Origin: Octopus vulgaris
Taxonomy: Eukaryota
Length of the DNA stretch: 64,000 nucleotides
Direction: 5' to 3'
Assembly (NCBI GenBank): GCA_951406725.2
Contig: OX597814.1
Coordinates: 27,094,001-27,158,000, forward strand
Positions 47,736 to 63,648 of this stretch are shown piece after piece. The position numbers were made by a program, and so were the translations under genes. Under the pieces are notes generated by a model, which saw nothing but the letters and a program-made list of their open reading frames with translations, was not told the DNA's origin and ran no database searches. How positions within the stretch are numbered: the first letter of the stretch is position 1; each line of letters starts with the position of its first letter.

Positions 47736-49442
47736 AAAAAAAAGGTTTGATAGGAGGGATTGAAAGAAGGGGAGATAATAAAGTATTGGTGATTCTAAAA
47801 TGAAGGTGTACGTGCATGTGTGTATGTGAGAAGGTGTAAGTGTGTTTGGGGGGATAGGGGCTAGTGACTTTGATGTGTGTGCATCTGTAACATGTGGATG
47901 TGTGGGTGCTGGGAAGTGGTCAGTGCTAGAGTGTGTGGAGCAGTGTAGGGTGGTGTGGTGGTGTCCTTATTTTAGACAGGGAAGACAGGATCTTTGGTAT
48001 GATGCAGTGCTGTTCAGTTTAAGGATTGGTATAGCTGTCAATTCCAAAATTGGGAGCTAAACCCTCCAAGATCTTCCAAATATATATCACCACATATATC
48101 TCTTGTCCTCTCTCCAGGTAATAGAGACTCAGCTCCTTTAGCCTCTCCCATTAGCCCATCTTTTGCATCGAATCAATCTTCTTTGTGTATTGGCACTGGA
48201 TTGCTTCAAGTTCCACAGTTTGTTTCACATTCCCTGGGGACCATAGTTGAGAGCAAGTAGTTAGTGTGAAAAACCTCATAAAGTTTTGTAAATTTAACCA
48301 GAATATATTCAGTGCTGAATTTTATTCTGAATAAACACGTTGTACTGAGATGCAATTCGAAAAGCCTGCCTTTTACATAGATATATAAAGGTAAACAATT
48401 TCTATGTACTATTTCGTGTTCGTCTGGTATGTTATGTATCTTGAATTATGCTTGCACTGAAGATTAAAAATTGTATTTTGTGCACTAATTATGAGATCAT
48501 ATGATATGCAGCTGAATTCTGTTTTTAAAATGCTTGCTTCGAGAGTTGCATTCCCTCATATTCAGTACAATGTGTTTATTTATTATGATAGTTTTGACTT
48601 TAAGAGTCCCTATTAGCGTGAGGCATTTGTGTATAATAATGCCCTTAATATAAATAATATATATATTCGTTTTATTTTATTTACTGATTGATTTTTCAAA
48701 TTGTTAATTTGCAAATATTATACTAATGTATTTACATACAGAATTACACTTTATCAAAAAATTCCCTCCAAAAATGAATGTTTGGAAGGGGTATATTCTA
48801 AATATAACTCAAAGAGGAGAACGAGAAAGAAAGGAGGAAAAGGAAAAAAGGAGGAATAGGAAAAAAGAGGGAGAGAGAAAGAAAGCAAAATGACTTTCAG
48901 TGATGACCAAATCGCACCTGTTTTTTTTTTGAAGAGGTCACCATCCTTAAACCCATTCCAATAAAATGGTAAAGGACTAAATAAATAAATGAATGAATGG
49001 TGAAAAGGAAGGTGGATACCCCTTTTCTCTCACTTTCCCTCTACCTATCTGTCCATCTGTCTGATTATCTATCTACCTATCAGCCTATCTATCCACCCAT
49101 CTCCATTTATCATCGGACCTCACCCCTCCCCCCCAAAAAACAATATTTTCTTCTAAACAAAACCAAAAAAAACATCTGTTTTATATAAATGAACAAGCTG
49201 TTTGTACATTCACATAATTTTATTTGACAAGTTCTATAAAGGAACGAAAGCGCTGATAATAATGACGAAATAAAAGGATTTTTTTTCCAAAATTCTGACA
49301 ACTTTTTTCTCAATATATATATATACGAGCAAAACGCACACCCCCGTTTAGTGGACGGTACTGAGTTGTCAAACATTTAAACCAAATTTTCTCAAAACAA
49401 CTTGTCAGACCGTCCCATAGGCCTCCTCTTTGAGAAACATTG

Positions 49443-50782
49443 CAAAAGTGTGACTGCGCATACGCGAAAGTGTGCGTGCGCATGCGCGAACGTTTGCGTG
49501 CGCATGCGCAAATGTGTTAATGCGCGAAAGTGTTCGTGCGCATGCGCGAACGTTTGAATGCGCATGCGCGAACGTTTGCGTGCGCGTGCGCGAAAGTGTG
49601 ACATGCGCGATACTGCGCGAAAGTGTTACTGCGCGTGCGCGAACGTTTGAATGCATGCAGGCGCGAAAGTGTGATTGCGCATGCGCGAAAGTGCACTAAC
49701 ACTTTCGCGCACTGCGCATTAACACTTTGCGCGCACTTTGCGCATTCAAACGTTCGCCATGCGCAAACACACTTTCGCGCATTGCGCATGTGCATGGCTT
49801 AACACTTTCGCGCATGCGCATTAACACTTTCGCGCATGCGCATTCAAACGTTCGCGCCTGCGCAGTCACACTTTCGCGCATGCGCATTAACACTTTCGCG
49901 CATGCGCAATCACACTTTCGCGCATGCGCATTCAAACGTTCGCGCACGCGCAGTAACACTTTCGCGCATGCGCAGTCACACTTTCGCGCACGCGCATTCA
50001 AACGTTCGCGCATGCTCATGAACATCTTCGCGCATGCGCATTAACACTTTCGCTCATGTGCAGTCACACTTTCGCGCATGCGCGGTCACACGTTCGCGCA
50101 TGGGCAGTCACACTTTCGCGCATGCGCAGTCACACTTTCGCGCATGCGCGGTCACACTTTCGCGCATGCGCAAACACACTTTCGCGCATGCGCATTCAAA
50201 CGTTCGCGCATGCGCATGTGCACTAACACTTTCGCGCATGCGCATTAACACTTTCGCGCATGCGCATTCAAACGTTCGCGCATGCGCAGTCACACTTTCG
50301 CGCATGCGCAGTCACACGTTCGCGCATGCGCAAACACCCTTTCGATCATGCGCAGTCACACTTTCGCGCATGCGCATTCAACACGTTCGCGCATGCGCAT
50401 GAACACTTTCGCGCATGCTCATTAACACTTTCGCGCATGCGCAATCACACTTTCGCGCACGCGCATTCAAACGTTCGTGCATGCGCATGAACACTTTCGC
50501 GCATGCGCACTAACACTTTCGCGCATGCGCATTAACACTTTCGCGCATGCGCATTCAAACGTTTGCGCATGCGCATGAACACTTTCGCGCATGCGCATTC
50601 ACACTTTCGAGCATGCGCAGTCACACTTTCGCGCTTGCGCATTAACACTTTCGCGCATGCGCATTAACACTTTCGCGCATGCGCAATCACACTTTCGCGC
50701 ATGCGCAATCACACTTTCGCGCATGCGCATTCAAACGTTCGCGCACGCGCAGTAACACTTTCGCGCATGCGCAGTCACACGT
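49443..50782. repeat. CpG-rich 22-bp minisatellite, about 60 units, core TTCGCGCATGCGCA; first ~250 bp inverted relative to the rest
   Basis: Unit variants are gtcacactttcgcgcatgcgca, ttaacactttcgcgcatgcgca and ttcaaacgttcgcgcatgcgca. 49443-49694 reads as the reverse complement (tgcgcatgcgcgaaagtgtgac); the switch is at ~49695. Confidence 0.97.
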
Positions 50783-50785
50783 TTC

Positions 50786-50850
50786 AATGTTAAATAAAAT
50801 GTTAAATAAAATGTTAAATATTAAATGTTAAATAAAATGTTAAATATTAA
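50786..50850 (+). repeat. Short 12-14-bp tandem repeat (aatgttaaataa) x ~5
   Basis: Directly follows the 22-bp array. Confidence 0.9.
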
Positions 50851-51987
50851 ATCTTATTTAATATATCTATTCTGAATCCTGTATTTACCGTTTATAAGAC
50901 TACATGTGTTTCATGAAAGTACGTCGGTTATGATTAGATACGAGGTATCTATTTTCAATACTTAATCGGGTCGACATACTCCCAATCTTCAGGTCCGGAT
51001 TCCTCAACATCTTTTACTATCTCTACATCTTATATACCTCTATGATACTCTATATCTTCAATATAATCTTACTTAGCAAATACAAATAAGTAGAAATACA
51101 AATAATAAATAAAAATAACTGAAAATTAAAAATTTAAGGAATAAACATTTAAGGAAAAAAATTTAAAGAGAAAAATACGAGTAAAATTGCGAATGAAAGT
51201 TACGAATAATAAATAAAGAATTGCGAATAAATAAATACAAAATAAAAATAGAGATAAAAATAATACGAATGTTAACTTATCTTCTCTTGGCTCAACGAAA
51301 ATTAGACATAGCCACATCTTGAAAAGAAGGTAAAATCCGCATTTGATAATACATATGTATAGAAGGTACCACAAAGAAACGTCAAAAAGTTCTAGTAAGT
51401 TACTTCTTTAACATCTCTCAATGTTTAATTCGTATATATAAAAGTAGTTTTAGAGACAGAATCACCTTCAACTCAATCAACACTGAAAGATTTTATACCC
51501 TACCAATCAATAAAATGTTAAATATTAAATCTTATACTAACTATATCTATTCTGAATCCTGTATTTACCGTTTATAAGACTACATGTGTTTCATGAAAGT
51601 ACGTCGGTATTGATTAGATACAAGGTATCTATTTTCAATACTTAATCGGGTCGACATACTCCCAATCTTCAGGTCCGGATTCCTCAACATATTTTACTGT
51701 CTCTACATCTTATATACCTCTATGATACTCTATATCTTCAATATAATCTTACTTAGCATATACAAATAAATAGAAATACAAATAATAAATAAAAATAACT
51801 GAAAATTAAAAATTTAAGGAATAAACATTTAAGGAAAAAATAGAGACAAAAATAATACGAATGTTAACTTATCTTTTCTTTCCTCGACGAAAATTAGACA
51901 TAGCCACATCTTGAAAAGAAGGTAAAATCTGCATTTGATAATACATATGTATAGAAGGTACTACAAATAACTGTCAAAAGGTTCTAC
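50830..51987 (+). repeat. Near-identical direct duplication (50830-51395 vs 51510-51987)
   Basis: 'gtatttaccgtttataagactacatgtgtttcatgaaagtacgtcggt' occurs at 50881 and 51561 (offset 680). The second copy lacks ~90 bp present at ~51160-51250. Confidence 0.93.
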
Positions 51988-52304
51988 TGGTGTATCTATT
52001 CCTTTATATAGTACTGTCAGGGGAACCGGAAACAAATGCATCACTGGAACAAGCCACTTTTATCGTTGTTTATTTTATTCAATCTATGAATTATCGCAAA
52101 CAACCAATCTAGTAAGTTACTTCTTTAGACTCTCAATTCGAATATTTTGGGATACATAAGAGTTACGTTGAAAAGAAAAGAAAACTTAACATTCGTTTTA
52201 TTTTCCTTTATATTTTTATATCATTATTATTTCATTTTTATTTCGTATTTGTTTATTCGCAATTCTTTATTCGTAACTTTCATTCGTAATTTTTAACGTA
52301 GTTC

Positions 52305-56794: not shown

Positions 56795-57636
56795 GAAAAT
56801 CAAATCAAATCAAATCAAAATAGATGAACATTAATGGAATTTGTATCTTTGTGGTACCAGTGCCGGTGGCACACAAGAAAACCATCCGAACATGGCCGTA
56901 GCCAGTACCGCATCGACTGGCCTCCGTGCTGTGGGCACGTAACAAACACCATCCGATCGTGGCCGTTCACCAGCCTCATCTGGCACCTATGTCGGTGGCA
57001 CATAAAAACACCATCCGAAGACCCGGCAAGACTAGTCAGGCCATAACCCGTGGCCCCTACCTGGGACGTAGTCAGTCCACCTGTGCATATCTTCCTTCTT
57101 GTGACACTTGTGAAGACCTGTTGAGGCAAGTGAAACTCAAAACAAATCAAAATAGATGAACATCAATGGAATTTGTATCTTTGTGGTACCAGTGCCGGTG
57201 GCACACAAGAAAACCATCCGAACGTGGCCGTAGCCAGTACCGCATCGACTGGCCTATGTGCTGTGGGCACGTAACAAACACCATCCGATCGTGGCCGTTT
57301 GCCAGCCTCATCTGGCACCTGTGTCGGTGGCACATAAAAACACCATCCGAGCGTGGCCGTCTGCCAGCCTCGTCTGGCACCTGTGTCGGTGGCACATAAA
57401 AAACACCATCCGAGCGTGGCCGTTCGCCAGCCTCGTCTGGCACCTGTGTCGGTGGCACATAAAATCACCCACTACACTCTCGGAGTGGTTGGCGTTAGGA
57501 AGGGCATCCAGCTGTAGAAACACTGCCAGATCTGACTGGCCTGGCGCAGCCTTCGGGCTCCCCAGACCCCAGTTGAACCGTCCAACCCATGCTAGCATGG
57601 AAAGCGGACGTTAAATGATGATGATGATGATGATGA
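56795..57636 (+). mobile_element. Young RTE LINE 3' end (end of ORF and 3' UTR with ~61-bp internal repeats, (GAT)n tail), with an extra upstream copy of part of the 3' UTR
   Basis: 56815-57017 is ~identical to 57147-57349 (offset 332). 57017 'gaagacccggcaag' equals the EKTRQ ORF end seen in the 14-kb LINE. The tail is ccgtccaacccatgctagcatggaaagcggacgttaaatgatgatg, and CpGs are retained. Confidence 0.9.
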
Positions 57637-58429
57637 TATATATATATATATATACAGTGGTGCCTTCGGGCTAAAACATTTTTAAGGATACATGTATATA
57701 TACATACACACACACACATATACACAACTTTATACATATTGCGCATATCATAAACCCCTTATTAGTTCTTTTCATTATTTTATCTATTTCACTACCATGT
57801 AAACATAGTTTCAATAGTTTTGTCTCCCACGTAGTTGTCTTAAGTTGATGCATCTCCGGTAATCGTTACATATTTATTTATTCAAGTTTATCACATCGTA
57901 ACTCATCTCCAAATTTGTCACAGATAGGCTGACCGAAAATTCTAAGATTTTTCAATTCTATTTCACTATTATCGGCATTTGCTGTTTCATTAAATTATGT
58001 TACCCAAAATCCCAAAGAATATTTTTCTCCCTCGTGTTCTATGACCACCCTAATTCTGCGCCCCCCCCCCCCTTTCTCTCTCTTTCGATTTACCACTTGA
58101 TTCGCCAACACTTCCCCCCTCTTTCACCACCACCACCCTATATAAACTAGCGCATGCACTCAGATTCCCCCTACTCGATTTTTAATAACTCCCCCAAAAG
58201 AATACAAATCCAGAAGATGCTCTTGTCTAAATTTGCTAGCTCCCGGTATGCCTGACCTCCCACCCCCTCCACATGTACTGGAAGTTCCTATCCTCTGCCT
58301 ACCTTTAGTTGTCTCCAATGAACACTTCTAAAGGCTTAATGCCATCCCCACTCCTACCTAGGGTTTATCAGTCATATAGTGCATAAAAATGATGGTGTAG
58401 TGTATGCATGTTGTTTATGAATTCTGCTA

Positions 58430-59768
58430 AATGCAAGCTTTCTTTTCAGGTACATGACGCTGCTGTCCCTCGTCCCAAGGTCTCACGGGTCCACACCCTC
58501 AGAGTTGGCACACTGAAAGGTAGGTCTGGTGAGATTGTTGAGATGCTTGAACAGAGATGTGTCAATTTGTGCTGCCTTCAAGAAGTAAGGTGGAGAGGAA
58601 GTTCTGTTAGGTTCCTTACAGGCAAAGAACACAGGTACAAGATTTTCTGGGCAGGGAACACTAACGGGGTCGGGAGTGTGGGTATACTTCTTGTGGAGAA
58701 ATGGGATGATAAGGTAATCGAGGTAGTCAGAGTATGCGATAGAATACTTAAGATTAGATTAGTGCTTCATCATGGGTTAGCAACCATTATCTCGGCCTAT
58801 GCCCCTCAACTAGGGCTACCTGATGGGCAGAAAGACTGGTTTTATGTCACCCTCTTGCAGACTACCTCGTTGACAAATGACAGGGACCTTCTCTTTGTGG
58901 CTGGTAACTTCAATGGACATGTTGGACGACAACATGCAGGGGGCTTTCATGGCGTACATGAAGGCTATGGTTTTGGTTCCTGCAATGAAGAGGGAACCAG
59001 ACTGCTAGAGTTCTGCGATGCAAATGATCTTATGGTTTGCAATACCAACTTCAGGAAACCTGCCAGTCACCTAGTCACCTACCATTCTGGCAGACACACT
59101 AGTCAAGTTGACTACATCCTTGCCAGAAAAAGGGAAAGATGGCTGCTTATAAATACCAAAACCTTTCCAGGCGAAGAATGTACTCCTCAACATAGACTAG
59201 TTAGCAACTTCAGGATCAGAGCTAAATGGATACCCAGAAGACGACCAGCATGGAAGAGAAGGGTCTGGAAACTTAAAGATCCTGCAAATGGACAGAGATT
59301 TAGAGACGTATTACTCGAAGCCTTTGACGAAATAGAAGGGGATATAGCATCAAAGACAACTGGAGGTTTCTACGAGACAACCTGCTGAGAGCCACTGATC
59401 AGATCAGTGGATGGTGCAAAGTCCCCTCTTGACCCAAGGTAACATGGTGGTAGAACAATGTGGTTGATAGGGCTATTAGAGAAAAGAAACAGGCTTGGAA
59501 GAATGGTGGTAGCGGGGAATTGTATCAAACTGCCAGAAGGGAAGCTAGAAGACAGGTTTATTTAGCCAGAGGGAAAGCAGATAAGAAAAAATTTGCCTAT
59601 GTTCTACACCGTGAGGACCAAAGACTTGAAGTATTTCGTGTGTGAGAGAGAAATGTGTCTGCATGGATGATGGTTCACTTGCACTAAATGAGGCTGCAAA
59701 GAGAAAGATTTGGAGACACTACTATGAAAGGTTGTTCAATAAAGAGAATGAATGGGAGAAAGAGAGTC
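58430..59768 (+). mobile_element. 5' half of an RTE LINE: APE endonuclease domain and linker, decayed and truncated before RT
   Basis: ORF 58408-59388 has VGTLKGR, CLQEVRW, SAYAPQ, AGNFNGHVG, CNEEGTRLLEFC, TYHSG..SQVDYIL and QHRLV. Downstream frameshifts follow; 59520-59765 resembles the 5' end of the 14-16 kb copy. Confidence 0.93.
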
Positions 59769-62519: not shown

Positions 62520-62765
62520 ATAATGATAATAATAATAATACTAATGAAATTATTGTATACAGTGCTCAGGTGCACCACAACTTGTCGAAAGTGCATATAA
62601 AGCATATGCAGTAATGTACAAATGTCTGGAAAGAGAACAGTGTATGAGTTAGATACATGCTTGCGTGTGTATGGAGGGGAGAAAATGAGATGTAGTGTTG
62701 GCGAATCTCAGGAAGCATGGAAGTTTTGAAGGATGCAGTGCTCCGACAAGTAACAACTGATGGCG
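62520..62765 (-). mobile_element. 3' terminus of a CR1-like LINE with (ATT)n tail
   Basis: The minus strand encodes ...SVVTCRSTASFKTSMLPEIRQHY (LINE C-terminal 'VV....ASFK' pattern), then a short UTR ending cactgtatacaataatttcattagtattattatt. Confidence 0.6.
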
Positions 62766-62897
62766 GCGGAGTTGGCATCCACACTCACACCTGCACCTGT
62801 TTGCTTCTCCCCCTTCTTCCCTCCCTCGTGAAGCTGTGGGAAAGGCAGTGTAAGGAAATCAACGTCGTAAAGCGTTGTCAAGGAGACCAGCGCACAA

Positions 62898-63015
62898 GTT
62901 CGCGCATGCGCAGTCACACTTTCGCGCATGCGCAGTCACACGCACACGTTCACGCATGCTCAGTCACTTTTGCGCATGCGCATTAACACCTTCGCGCATG
63001 CGCATTCACAGTTTC
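62898..63015 (+). repeat. Short copy (~5 units) of the 22-bp GCGCATGCGC minisatellite
   Basis: 'ttcgcgcatgcgcagtcacactttcgcgcatgcgcagtcacac...' has the same units as 49443-50782. Confidence 0.92.
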
Positions 63016-63643
63016 GAACATTAGGCCTCACCGAGACCTTTGGGAATATGCTGTGCTTGAGAAGACCCGGCAAGCCAAGTGAGACCATAACCTCGTGGCC
63101 TATGCCAGGGGCGTAACCAGCCCACTTATTCGTACCTTTCCTTCATTGGACACTAAACTCTGCTTGCAAAGACCTGTTGAGGCAAGTGGAATCAAAATGA
63201 AATTCGATGACTGGCATCCGTGCTAGTGGGGCGCTAAGAGCATCATCCGAACGTGATTGTTGCCAGAGCAGCAAACTGGCTTCCATGCTGGTGGTACATA
63301 AAAAGCACCATTCAAGCGTGATCATTACCAGTGTTACCTTACTGGCACGTGAAAAAACACTTGAGCGAGGTTGTTGCTAGTGCTGCTGGACTGGCTCCTG
63401 TGCAGGTGGCACATAAAAAACACCATTTGAGCATGGCCGTTGCCAGTACCACCTGACTGGCCCTCATGCCGGTGACACATAAAAGTACCCTTTCAGAGTG
63501 GTTGGCGTTAGGAAGGGCATCAAGCTGTAGAAACTCTGCCAGATTAGATTGGAGCCTGATGCAGCCATCTGGTTTGCCAGTCCTCAGTCAAATCGTCCAA
63601 CCCATGCTAGCATGGAAAGCGGACGTTAAACGATGATGATGAT
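63012..63643 (+). mobile_element. RTE LINE 3' end (ORF terminus and 3' UTR with internal repeats, (GAT)n tail)
   Basis: 'ttcgaacattaggcctcaccgag' (LGLTE), then 'tatgctgtgcttgagaagacccggcaag' (YAVLEKTRQ). Ends gtccaacccatgctagcatggaaagcggacgttaaacgatgatgatg. Confidence 0.9.
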
Positions 63644-63648
63644 ATATA

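What the first reader, a model, noticed from the sequence alone, without database searches (positions are those of the whole stretch)
49443..50782. 1.35-kb array of about 60 NRF1/Erect-wing-type palindromes in an AT-rich, CpG-poor genome
Seen: the 22-bp unit has a strongly conserved GCGCATGCGCA core and a spacer alternating among a few variants (gtcacacttt, ttaacacttt, ttcaaacgtt, atcacacttt, tgaacacttt). CpGs are largely intact, and the period is about two helical turns. Established: (T/C)GCGCA(T/C)GCGC(A/G) is the binding consensus of NRF1/EWG/P3A2, whose binding is methylation-sensitive, and alternating purine-pyrimidine CG-rich tracts can form Z-DNA. Inference: a dispersed minisatellite acting as a phased homotypic TF-binding platform or sink, or an artificial CpG island, with variant spacers hinting at higher-order structure.
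Basis: partly seen in the sequence, partly recalled or inferred. Interest (0 to 1): 0.75.

Follow-up and report, generated by a model that had tools for sequence, protein, structure and literature searches.

The report
Helitron-borne minisatellite of NRF1 sites
This 1.3-kb block is one of at least 40 scattered copies of a 22-letter repeat that is mostly carried inside a rolling-circle transposon; each unit spells the binding site of the gene regulator NRF1, and the variants that spread mostly spare that site, which likely means that the bound protein helps the repeat multiply rather than that the block regulates a nearby gene.

Summary
The array is real: about 61 units of 22 bp, 42 with a perfect NRF1 consensus, CpG o/e 1.95. 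It is not locus-specific. Of 40 places examined (2,418 units), 31 abut a very abundant non-autonomous Helitron and 21 share one tail, so this is a Helitron-borne minisatellite like the oyster Cg_HINE repeats. The window copy is an orphan fused between a truncated second Helitron and a 6-kb duplication from C2. New core mutations arise about as often as spacer ones but are rarely amplified (2 of 92 versus 39 of 158), so the bias acts on copying, not on upkeep. The genome's NRF1 keeps its three base-reading residues. Intact CpGs are ordinary for transposons here; no regular higher-order repeat and no host gene was found. Binding is untested; hairpin-driven copying is the main rival. The scan has noted the same motif-sparing pattern before in other satellites of this genome. 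Verdict: new variant of a known kind, moderate interest.

The parts
49443..49693 (-). Inverted arm of the minisatellite, 11 units, more degenerate
49690..49697 (.). Point where the array switches orientation, an 8-bp palindrome made of spacer letters; units at about 49600-49800 are irregular in length
   Evidence: sequence
49694..50782 (+). Main arm, 50 units of 22 bp; its commonest spacers TTCAAACGTT, TTAACACTTT and TGAACACTTT were seen between intact cores in none of the other 43 stretches compared
49325..49442 (-). Last 118 bp (positions 424-541, 92% identical) of a second abundant non-autonomous Helitron-like family ('helB'), cut off where the array begins; complete copies run on without an array
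50783..50846 (+). Junction filler: starts with an inverted copy of the 7 bases at the left junction (49436-49442), then about 5 tandem copies of a 12-mer from the start of the duplicated segment
50831..56791 (+). About 6-kb duplication, 97.5% identical to G000:C2:91,834,604-91,840,846, whose breakpoint is the right end of the array
62759..62890 (+). Fragment (227-358, 95%) of the main carrier Helitron family 'helA', joined directly to the second array
62891..63016 (+). Second, 5-unit copy of the same minisatellite

Best explanation
The array is one copy of a dispersed 22-bp minisatellite that travels mainly inside a composite non-autonomous Helitron, and its NRF1-site core is likely kept intact because NRF1-bound units are the ones that get copied. 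Shown: family membership, Helitron carriage, core-sparing amplification, frequent inversions, and the window copy's position at a rearrangement junction. Inferred: NRF1 occupies the units in the germ line; a row of bound dimers would stall replication or invite breaks; repair by template switching between units would then lengthen, invert and transplant arrays, using units with an intact site as donors. Core mutants arise normally but drop out of copying. On this reading the array is selfish DNA that exploits NRF1, and the window copy is a by-product with no shown job at this locus.
For: Carriage: 31 of 40 places have helA within 100 bp of an array and 21 of 40 share one tail, against 0.2% of 164 kb of background DNA; helA has 16,545 exact 3' ends. 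Core sparing: heterozygosity of G9-C18 versus the other 12 positions 0.076 vs 0.259 pooled (exact permutation p 0.0002), 0.094 vs 0.199 place-weighted (p 0.013), 0.069 vs 0.203 in the window alone (p 0.038). One-step variants seen once: 64 at positions 10-19, 81 in the spacer; variants with 5 or more copies: 2 of 92 vs 39 of 158. Locus-specific expansions: 6 of 36 in positions 10-19, all at 8-11%, against up to 59% outside; as distinct alleles 6 of 26, p 0.016. A spacer-anchored search that ignores the core gave 202 hits; the 100 listed show intact or scattered variant cores and no array with a fixed alternative core. For protein over shape: no excess of palindrome-restoring double changes (6 of 24); the commonest core change in the window is T14C, the Y of the consensus; A19, outside the palindrome, is conserved and C8 often becomes T, completing TGCGCATGCGCA; a non-palindromic 13-bp satellite in the same composites also has a conserved block; two other transposon families carry the same motif near their ends, one as a pair at the same 22-bp period. 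NRF1 gene with R206, N242, R244 (PMC10810270 section 17).
Against: No binding, accessibility or methylation data. G9, a base that NRF1 reads (4-fold loss for G to A, PMC10810270 Table 2), varies twice as much as its twin C18 (7.2% vs 3.6%). In three copies made from one array, core columns changed nearly as often as spacer columns (63 of 470 vs 83 of 460, p 0.058; flanks 26 of 634; the alignment of repeats is uncertain), so sites are not maintained one by one. In the window, five spacer positions are as constant as the core; spacer diversity is concentrated in about six positions, many of them shared ancestral variants. The range 10-19 used was chosen after seeing the data. Several inversions pivot on the palindromic core, which needs no protein. 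The fork-stalling step is by analogy only (recalled).
Confidence: 0.48

Rival explanations
1. Same Helitron-borne minisatellite, but the core is spared for structural reasons: in single-stranded rolling-circle or repair intermediates the palindromic cores pair with each other and set the register for slippage and template switching, so only units with intact cores act as donors. The NRF1 match is incidental.
For: Neighbouring cores fold into a long stem, -22 kcal/mol for 87 nt (no shuffle control). 8 of 40 places contain an orientation switch, several at an intact core. The standard composite begins with a palindromic head at the Helitron junction. Junctions to helA fall at many points with short shared words.
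Against: No excess of palindrome-restoring double changes; conservation is shifted one base off the palindrome, A19 kept and G9 looser; a non-palindromic satellite in the same elements shows a similar block pattern; the window's own switch is not at a core.
Confidence: 0.3
2. The arrays are kept by host selection as NRF1 platforms, sinks or artificial CpG islands that regulate genes or chromatin.
For: The 40 places hold 1,673 consensus sites, 19.5% of all strand matches in the assembly; CpG o/e 1.95; Helitron-borne HSF-1 sites are functional in Caenorhabditis (PMC6927752, passages).
Against: Copies are heterogeneous, rearranged and transposon-flanked; core positions decay freely once copied; no host gene recognised in 54 ORFs of the window; low CpG decay is shared with the plain Helitron (3.7% vs 2.4%).
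Confidence: 0.1
3. No constraint at all: a few early spacer variants in the founding array were inherited by all copies, and the apparent core conservation is founder history.
For: The main spacer variants are shared by many loci; place-weighted p values are modest (0.013-0.018); paralogue comparison shows no significant core-spacer difference.
Against: Locus-specific expansions also avoid the core; 15 of 30 spacer alleles but 0 of 30 inner-core alleles reach 3%.
Confidence: 0.12

Closest known systems
Cg_HINE elements of the Pacific oyster (PMC7492417; abstract and passages read)
   Same: Short satellite-like arrays dispersed through a mollusc genome as internal repeats of non-autonomous rolling-circle elements; some carry two different arrays; proposed source of long satellites.
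   Different: Those are Helentrons with subterminal inverted repeats and oligo-T targets; the carrier here has canonical TC...hairpin-CTAG ends. The array here sits between a 5' fragment and a complete copy of the carrier, its unit is a transcription-factor site, and 9 of 40 places have lost the carrier.
Helitron-acquired heat shock elements in Caenorhabditis (PMC6927752; passages read)
   Same: Helitrons supply repeated sites for one conserved factor and hold a large share of the genome's sites.
   Different: There binding and gene induction are shown and the share is over half; here binding is untested, the share is about a fifth of consensus matches, and the claim concerns biased amplification.
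Human Satellite 3 as a TF-binding platform (PMC11526998; abstract read)
   Same: Tandem repeat whose unit encodes TF motifs.
   Different: Megabase arrays with demonstrated binding and function; here 0.1-6 kb arrays, about 2,400 units examined, transposon-borne.
Hypervariable human minisatellites with a shared core, destabilised by PRDM9 binding (recalled, no call)
   Same: A conserved core in variant-repeat arrays, with a bound protein driving turnover.
   Different: PRDM9 directs meiotic breaks; NRF1 is an ordinary activator, and no such activity is known to me for it.

Membership tests
Non-autonomous Helitron (carrier helA) | 5' TC after A, 3' CTRR before T, no target duplication (features recalled; lack of TSD also in PMC7492417) | tested here: met
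   10 of 10 copies have T after CTAG; the 3 of 10 whose 5' end my pattern found begin A|TC
Non-autonomous Helitron (carrier helA) | GC-rich hairpin about 12 nt before the 3' end | tested here: met
   16-nt CCCG...CGGG stem-loop 12 nt from the end, read from the sequence; 16,545 exact copies
Non-autonomous Helitron (carrier helA) | Autonomous RepHel partner with matching ends | tested here: inconclusive
   150 Helitron_like_N matches scored, many in long open frames; the one checked beside an array shares no ends with helA
Helitron-carried tandem repeat (family level) | Array inside the element with the same junctions at unrelated loci | tested here: met
   helA[1-306] + array + tail + helA recurs on many contigs; 21 of 40 places with the tail
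Helitron-carried tandem repeat (window copy) | The window array itself lies inside an intact carrier | tested here: not met
   No helA or tail within 100 bp; flanked by a truncated helB 3' end and a C2 duplication
MITE / foldback transposon | Terminal inverted repeats and target duplication shared among copies | tested here: not met
   The inverted 7-mer at the ends is native helB sequence on the left; other inverted arrays have unrelated ends
NRF1 binding site | GCGCATGCGC with two TGCGC half-sites | tested here: met
   42 consensus sites in the array; PMC10810270 sections 15, 17, 18
NRF1 binding site | Cognate factor with R206, N242, R244 | tested here: met
   Five-exon PF10491 match on C4; exon aligned to 8K4L/8K3D keeps all three
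NRF1 binding site | Occupied in vivo, unmethylated | not testable with these tools
   Only indirect: inner-CpG transitions 2-3%, similar to helA
CpG island | Over 200 bp, GC over 50%, CpG o/e over 0.6 (criteria recalled) | tested here: met
   1,340 bp, GC 0.55, o/e 1.95; composition only
CpG island | Promoter activity or open chromatin | not testable with these tools
   No host exon recognised
Higher-order repeat satellite | Regular multi-unit period | tested here: not met
   No significant lag in spacer order; one 92-bp internal duplication

The most novel reading that the evidence does not exclude
A housekeeping transcription factor acts as the engine of a satellite: NRF1 bound in rows makes its own sites the preferred templates for copying, so the repeat evolves towards and keeps the factor's consensus with no benefit to the host, seeds inversions, translocations and 20-35-kb daughter satellites, and ends up holding a fifth of the genome's consensus sites.
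Probability: 0.3. Interest if true: 0.75.

Novelty: new variant of a known kind. Interest (0 to 1): 0.45.

Why it matters
Conserved blocks in satellite monomers are usually read as proof of host function. This family separates the two steps: core mutations arise and persist, yet are not amplified. If NRF1 binding causes that, motif conservation in repeats can come from biased copying alone. The system is easy to test, because the factor's structure and per-base affinities are known and the unit is 22 bp. It would also explain how transposons turn single promoter-like motifs into satellites and rearrangement hot spots. If the cause is hairpin geometry, the finding is an ordinary Helitron minisatellite.

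Tried and rejected
MITE or foldback element: rejected, no shared ends or target duplication. Regular higher-order repeat: rejected. CpG retention as a special feature: rejected, helA CpG transitions 49 of 1,318 vs non-CpG 84 of 3,465, and octopus transposons are reported to be poorly methylated, satellites somewhat more (PMC9476566, passages). The C2:91.94 Mb array, about 100 kb from the duplication's source, as parent of the window array: not supported, it lacks the window's private spacers, and no other stretch shares more than 64 exact bases. Long DNA between two arrays as an autonomous element: it is 13-bp satellite (output cut, TRF and ORF parts seen). RepHel gene beside an array as helA's partner: no shared ends. 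Central AT as a discriminator between binding and hairpin: dropped, NRF1 itself prefers AT about 3-fold (PMC10810270 sections 15, 18). Pair count 1,630 vs 0 for the reversed control palindrome: mostly one family's expansion, not independent evidence. Host gene search: 54 of 65 listed ORFs of 75 aa or more were scanned, 11 in obvious repeats left out; one weak PHD/C1 hit inside a retroelement-like stretch; short exons would be missed. Sequencing runs: no RNA holder listed. No listed contig bridged the left junction, but the table was cut and contigs break in repeats; the right junction has no read-level check, so an assembly error at the junctions or the irregular inversion zone is not excluded. 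Z-DNA: alternating runs are mostly 12-13 bp, at most 19; not tested further. Literature searches without a description of this family; PMC13282606 main text has no hit for 'satellite', 'minisatellite' or 'NRF1' at word start, but its repeat library and supplements were not seen and may hold the consensus.

Full report
Observation. The array is there as described. It has about 61 units of 22 bp, reference unit ACACTTTCGCGCATGCGCAGTC, numbered 1-22 below. 42 units carry a perfect YGCGCAYGCGCR. GC is 0.55 and CpG o/e 1.95, against 0.31 and 0.30 elsewhere in the window. Spacer order has no regular period, and 22 bp drifts 34 degrees per unit, so neither higher-order structure nor long-range phasing holds. 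The genome is 2.8 Gb in 227 contigs; I treat it as octopus-type by inference.

The family. One exact 26-mer has 127 matches on many contigs (100 listed). From the listed parts I fetched 40 places, with 2,418 units in all; unlisted matches mean this is a lower bound. 31 of 40 have a repeat I call helA within 100 bp, against 0.2% of 164 kb of background, and 21 share one short tail. HelA starts A|TC, ends in a hairpin and CTAG|T, and has 16,545 exact 3' ends: a canonical non-autonomous Helitron. The usual layout is helA[1-306], array, tail, complete helA. Only a small minority of helA copies carry arrays (17 exact tails). Two composites hold 21 and 34 kb of a 13-bp satellite between two 22-bp arrays. 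Contigs from four runs labelled as four organisms lie on the array part; one from organism C matches 49445-49517 without a difference, so the family is not an artefact of this assembly.

The window copy. It is one of 9 places without helA. To its left are the last 118 bp of a second Helitron-like family on the minus strand, cut where the array starts; other copies of that family run on normally. To its right come a short templated-looking filler and a 6-kb segment 97.5% identical to C2:91.835-91.841 Mb, whose breakpoint is the array's end. Its commonest spacers occur in none of 43 other stretches. I infer that it arrived or was rebuilt in a template-switching repair event and then diversified in place. 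The junctions lack read-level confirmation. A 5-unit copy at 62891-63016 is joined to a helA fragment. No host exon was recognised.

Is the core constrained? In 1,770 units, mismatch per site was 5.1% over positions 8-19 and 17.2% in the spacer. With the core fixed beforehand as G9-C18, an exact permutation over positions gives p 0.0002 pooled, 0.013 place-weighted and 0.038 for the window alone (1,955 units). The pattern is one of amplification. One-step variants seen once number 64 at positions 10-19 and 81 in the spacer, but those with five or more copies number 2 of 92 and 39 of 158. Locus-specific expansions are 6 of 36 in positions 10-19, all at 8-11%, or 6 of 26 distinct alleles, p 0.016. 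Against a strong reading: range 10-19 was chosen after looking; diversity sits in about six positions and A3, T6, T7 are nearly as constant as the core; and three copies of one array differ at 13.4% of core and 18.0% of spacer columns (p 0.058), both well above their flanks at 4.1%. So single sites are not maintained; arrays turn over fast; core mutants just do not spread.

CpG. Inner CpG transitions are 2-3%; helA beside the arrays shows 3.7% against 2.4% for other C and G. Transposons in octopus are reported to be little methylated, satellites somewhat more (PMC9476566, passages). Intact CpGs are therefore not a sign of function.

NRF1. One five-exon PF10491 gene lies on C4. Its exon aligned to the human structures keeps R206, N242 and R244, the base-reading residues (PMC10810270, sections 15, 17, 18 read). 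Binding in vitro is thus likely. The consensus has 16,885 strand matches genome-wide (reversed control 5,381), and the 40 places hold 19.5% of them, 1,673 sites. The extended motif also occurs once near the 5' end of a TA-flanked mariner-like repeat (18 of 18 singleton hits fetched) and twice, at the same 22-bp period, in each terminal repeat of a 2.7-kb foldback-type element (48 exact hits). Either could have seeded the unit; the spacers are too different to say.

Mechanism. Shown: carriage, inversions (8 of 40 places), junction position, core-sparing amplification. Inferred: the cause. I favour bound NRF1 (0.48) over hairpin geometry (0.30) because palindrome-restoring double changes are not in excess (6 of 24), conservation is shifted off the palindrome towards A19, C8 drifts to the T that completes the best site, and a non-palindromic satellite in the same elements shows a like block. 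The looseness of G9 fits neither well. The step from bound protein to stalled forks and template switching is an analogy from memory. My first reading favoured shape; notes from this scan on TCF- and TEAD-site satellites in the same genome (unchecked AI notes) and the tests above moved it.

Comparison and novelty. Rolling-circle elements that carry dispersed satellite-like arrays are known in a mollusc (PMC7492417, abstract and passages; PMC8268682, listing only). Helitron-borne TF-site arrays are known in Caenorhabditis (PMC6927752, passages), and satellites as TF platforms in human (PMC11526998, abstract). I found no description of this family or of motif-sparing amplification for NRF1; unseen repeat libraries may list the consensus. 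It is a new variant of a known kind. The locus itself looks like debris; the interest lies in the family and in a cheap test of whether a transcription factor can drive repeat evolution.

Noticed in passing
L158:2610-5460 (G000:C1:86.83 Mb) and L161-L172: A 2.7-kb foldback-type element with very long terminal inverted repeats carries two NRF1 cores at a 22-bp period inside each end; 48 exact hits.
   Followed up: partly
L078-L095, L190-L195: A TA-flanked mariner-like repeat (label recalled) has a single NRF1 site about 45 bp inside its 5' end; it accounts for all 18 singleton hits fetched.
   Followed up: partly
G000:C1:16,975,950-17,010,000 and C1:107,708,000-107,729,300: 34 kb and 21 kb of a 13-bp satellite (CAAATAGCCAACC) lie between two 22-bp arrays inside one Helitron composite; the first block flips orientation four times and the unit has a conserved 8-bp block.
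   Followed up: partly
G000:C4:153.590-153.606 Mb and C4:29.915-29.936 Mb: An array composite and a RepHel gene (1,518-aa open frame in one copy) are duplicated together; the RepHel part is 98% identical, the array part 90%.
   Followed up: partly
L041 (C18:1-10000), L046-L047, L051, L044-L045: The 22-bp arrays alternate with other repeats (SINE-like pieces, AT-rich 11-13-bp satellites, helA 5' ends) in kilobase-scale tandem blocks, one at the very start of contig C18.
   Followed up: no
window 50831-52290: The duplicated segment begins with a 680-bp tandem duplication of a third repeat family that has an internal inverted repeat.
   Followed up: partly
window 58393-59388: 331-aa open frame resembling a LINE AP endonuclease (recalled); no Pfam hit at 0.001.
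   Followed up: no
window 56802-57640 and 63040-63645: Two copies of a repeat with internal 62-63-bp tandem units ending in (GAT)n; the left one marks the right end of the C2 duplication.
   Followed up: no
window 49694-50782: Units with the TTT spacer end also spell TTTCGCGC, an E2F-type site (recalled) overlapping the NRF1 site, but the first T is the most variable position in the family.
   Followed up: partly
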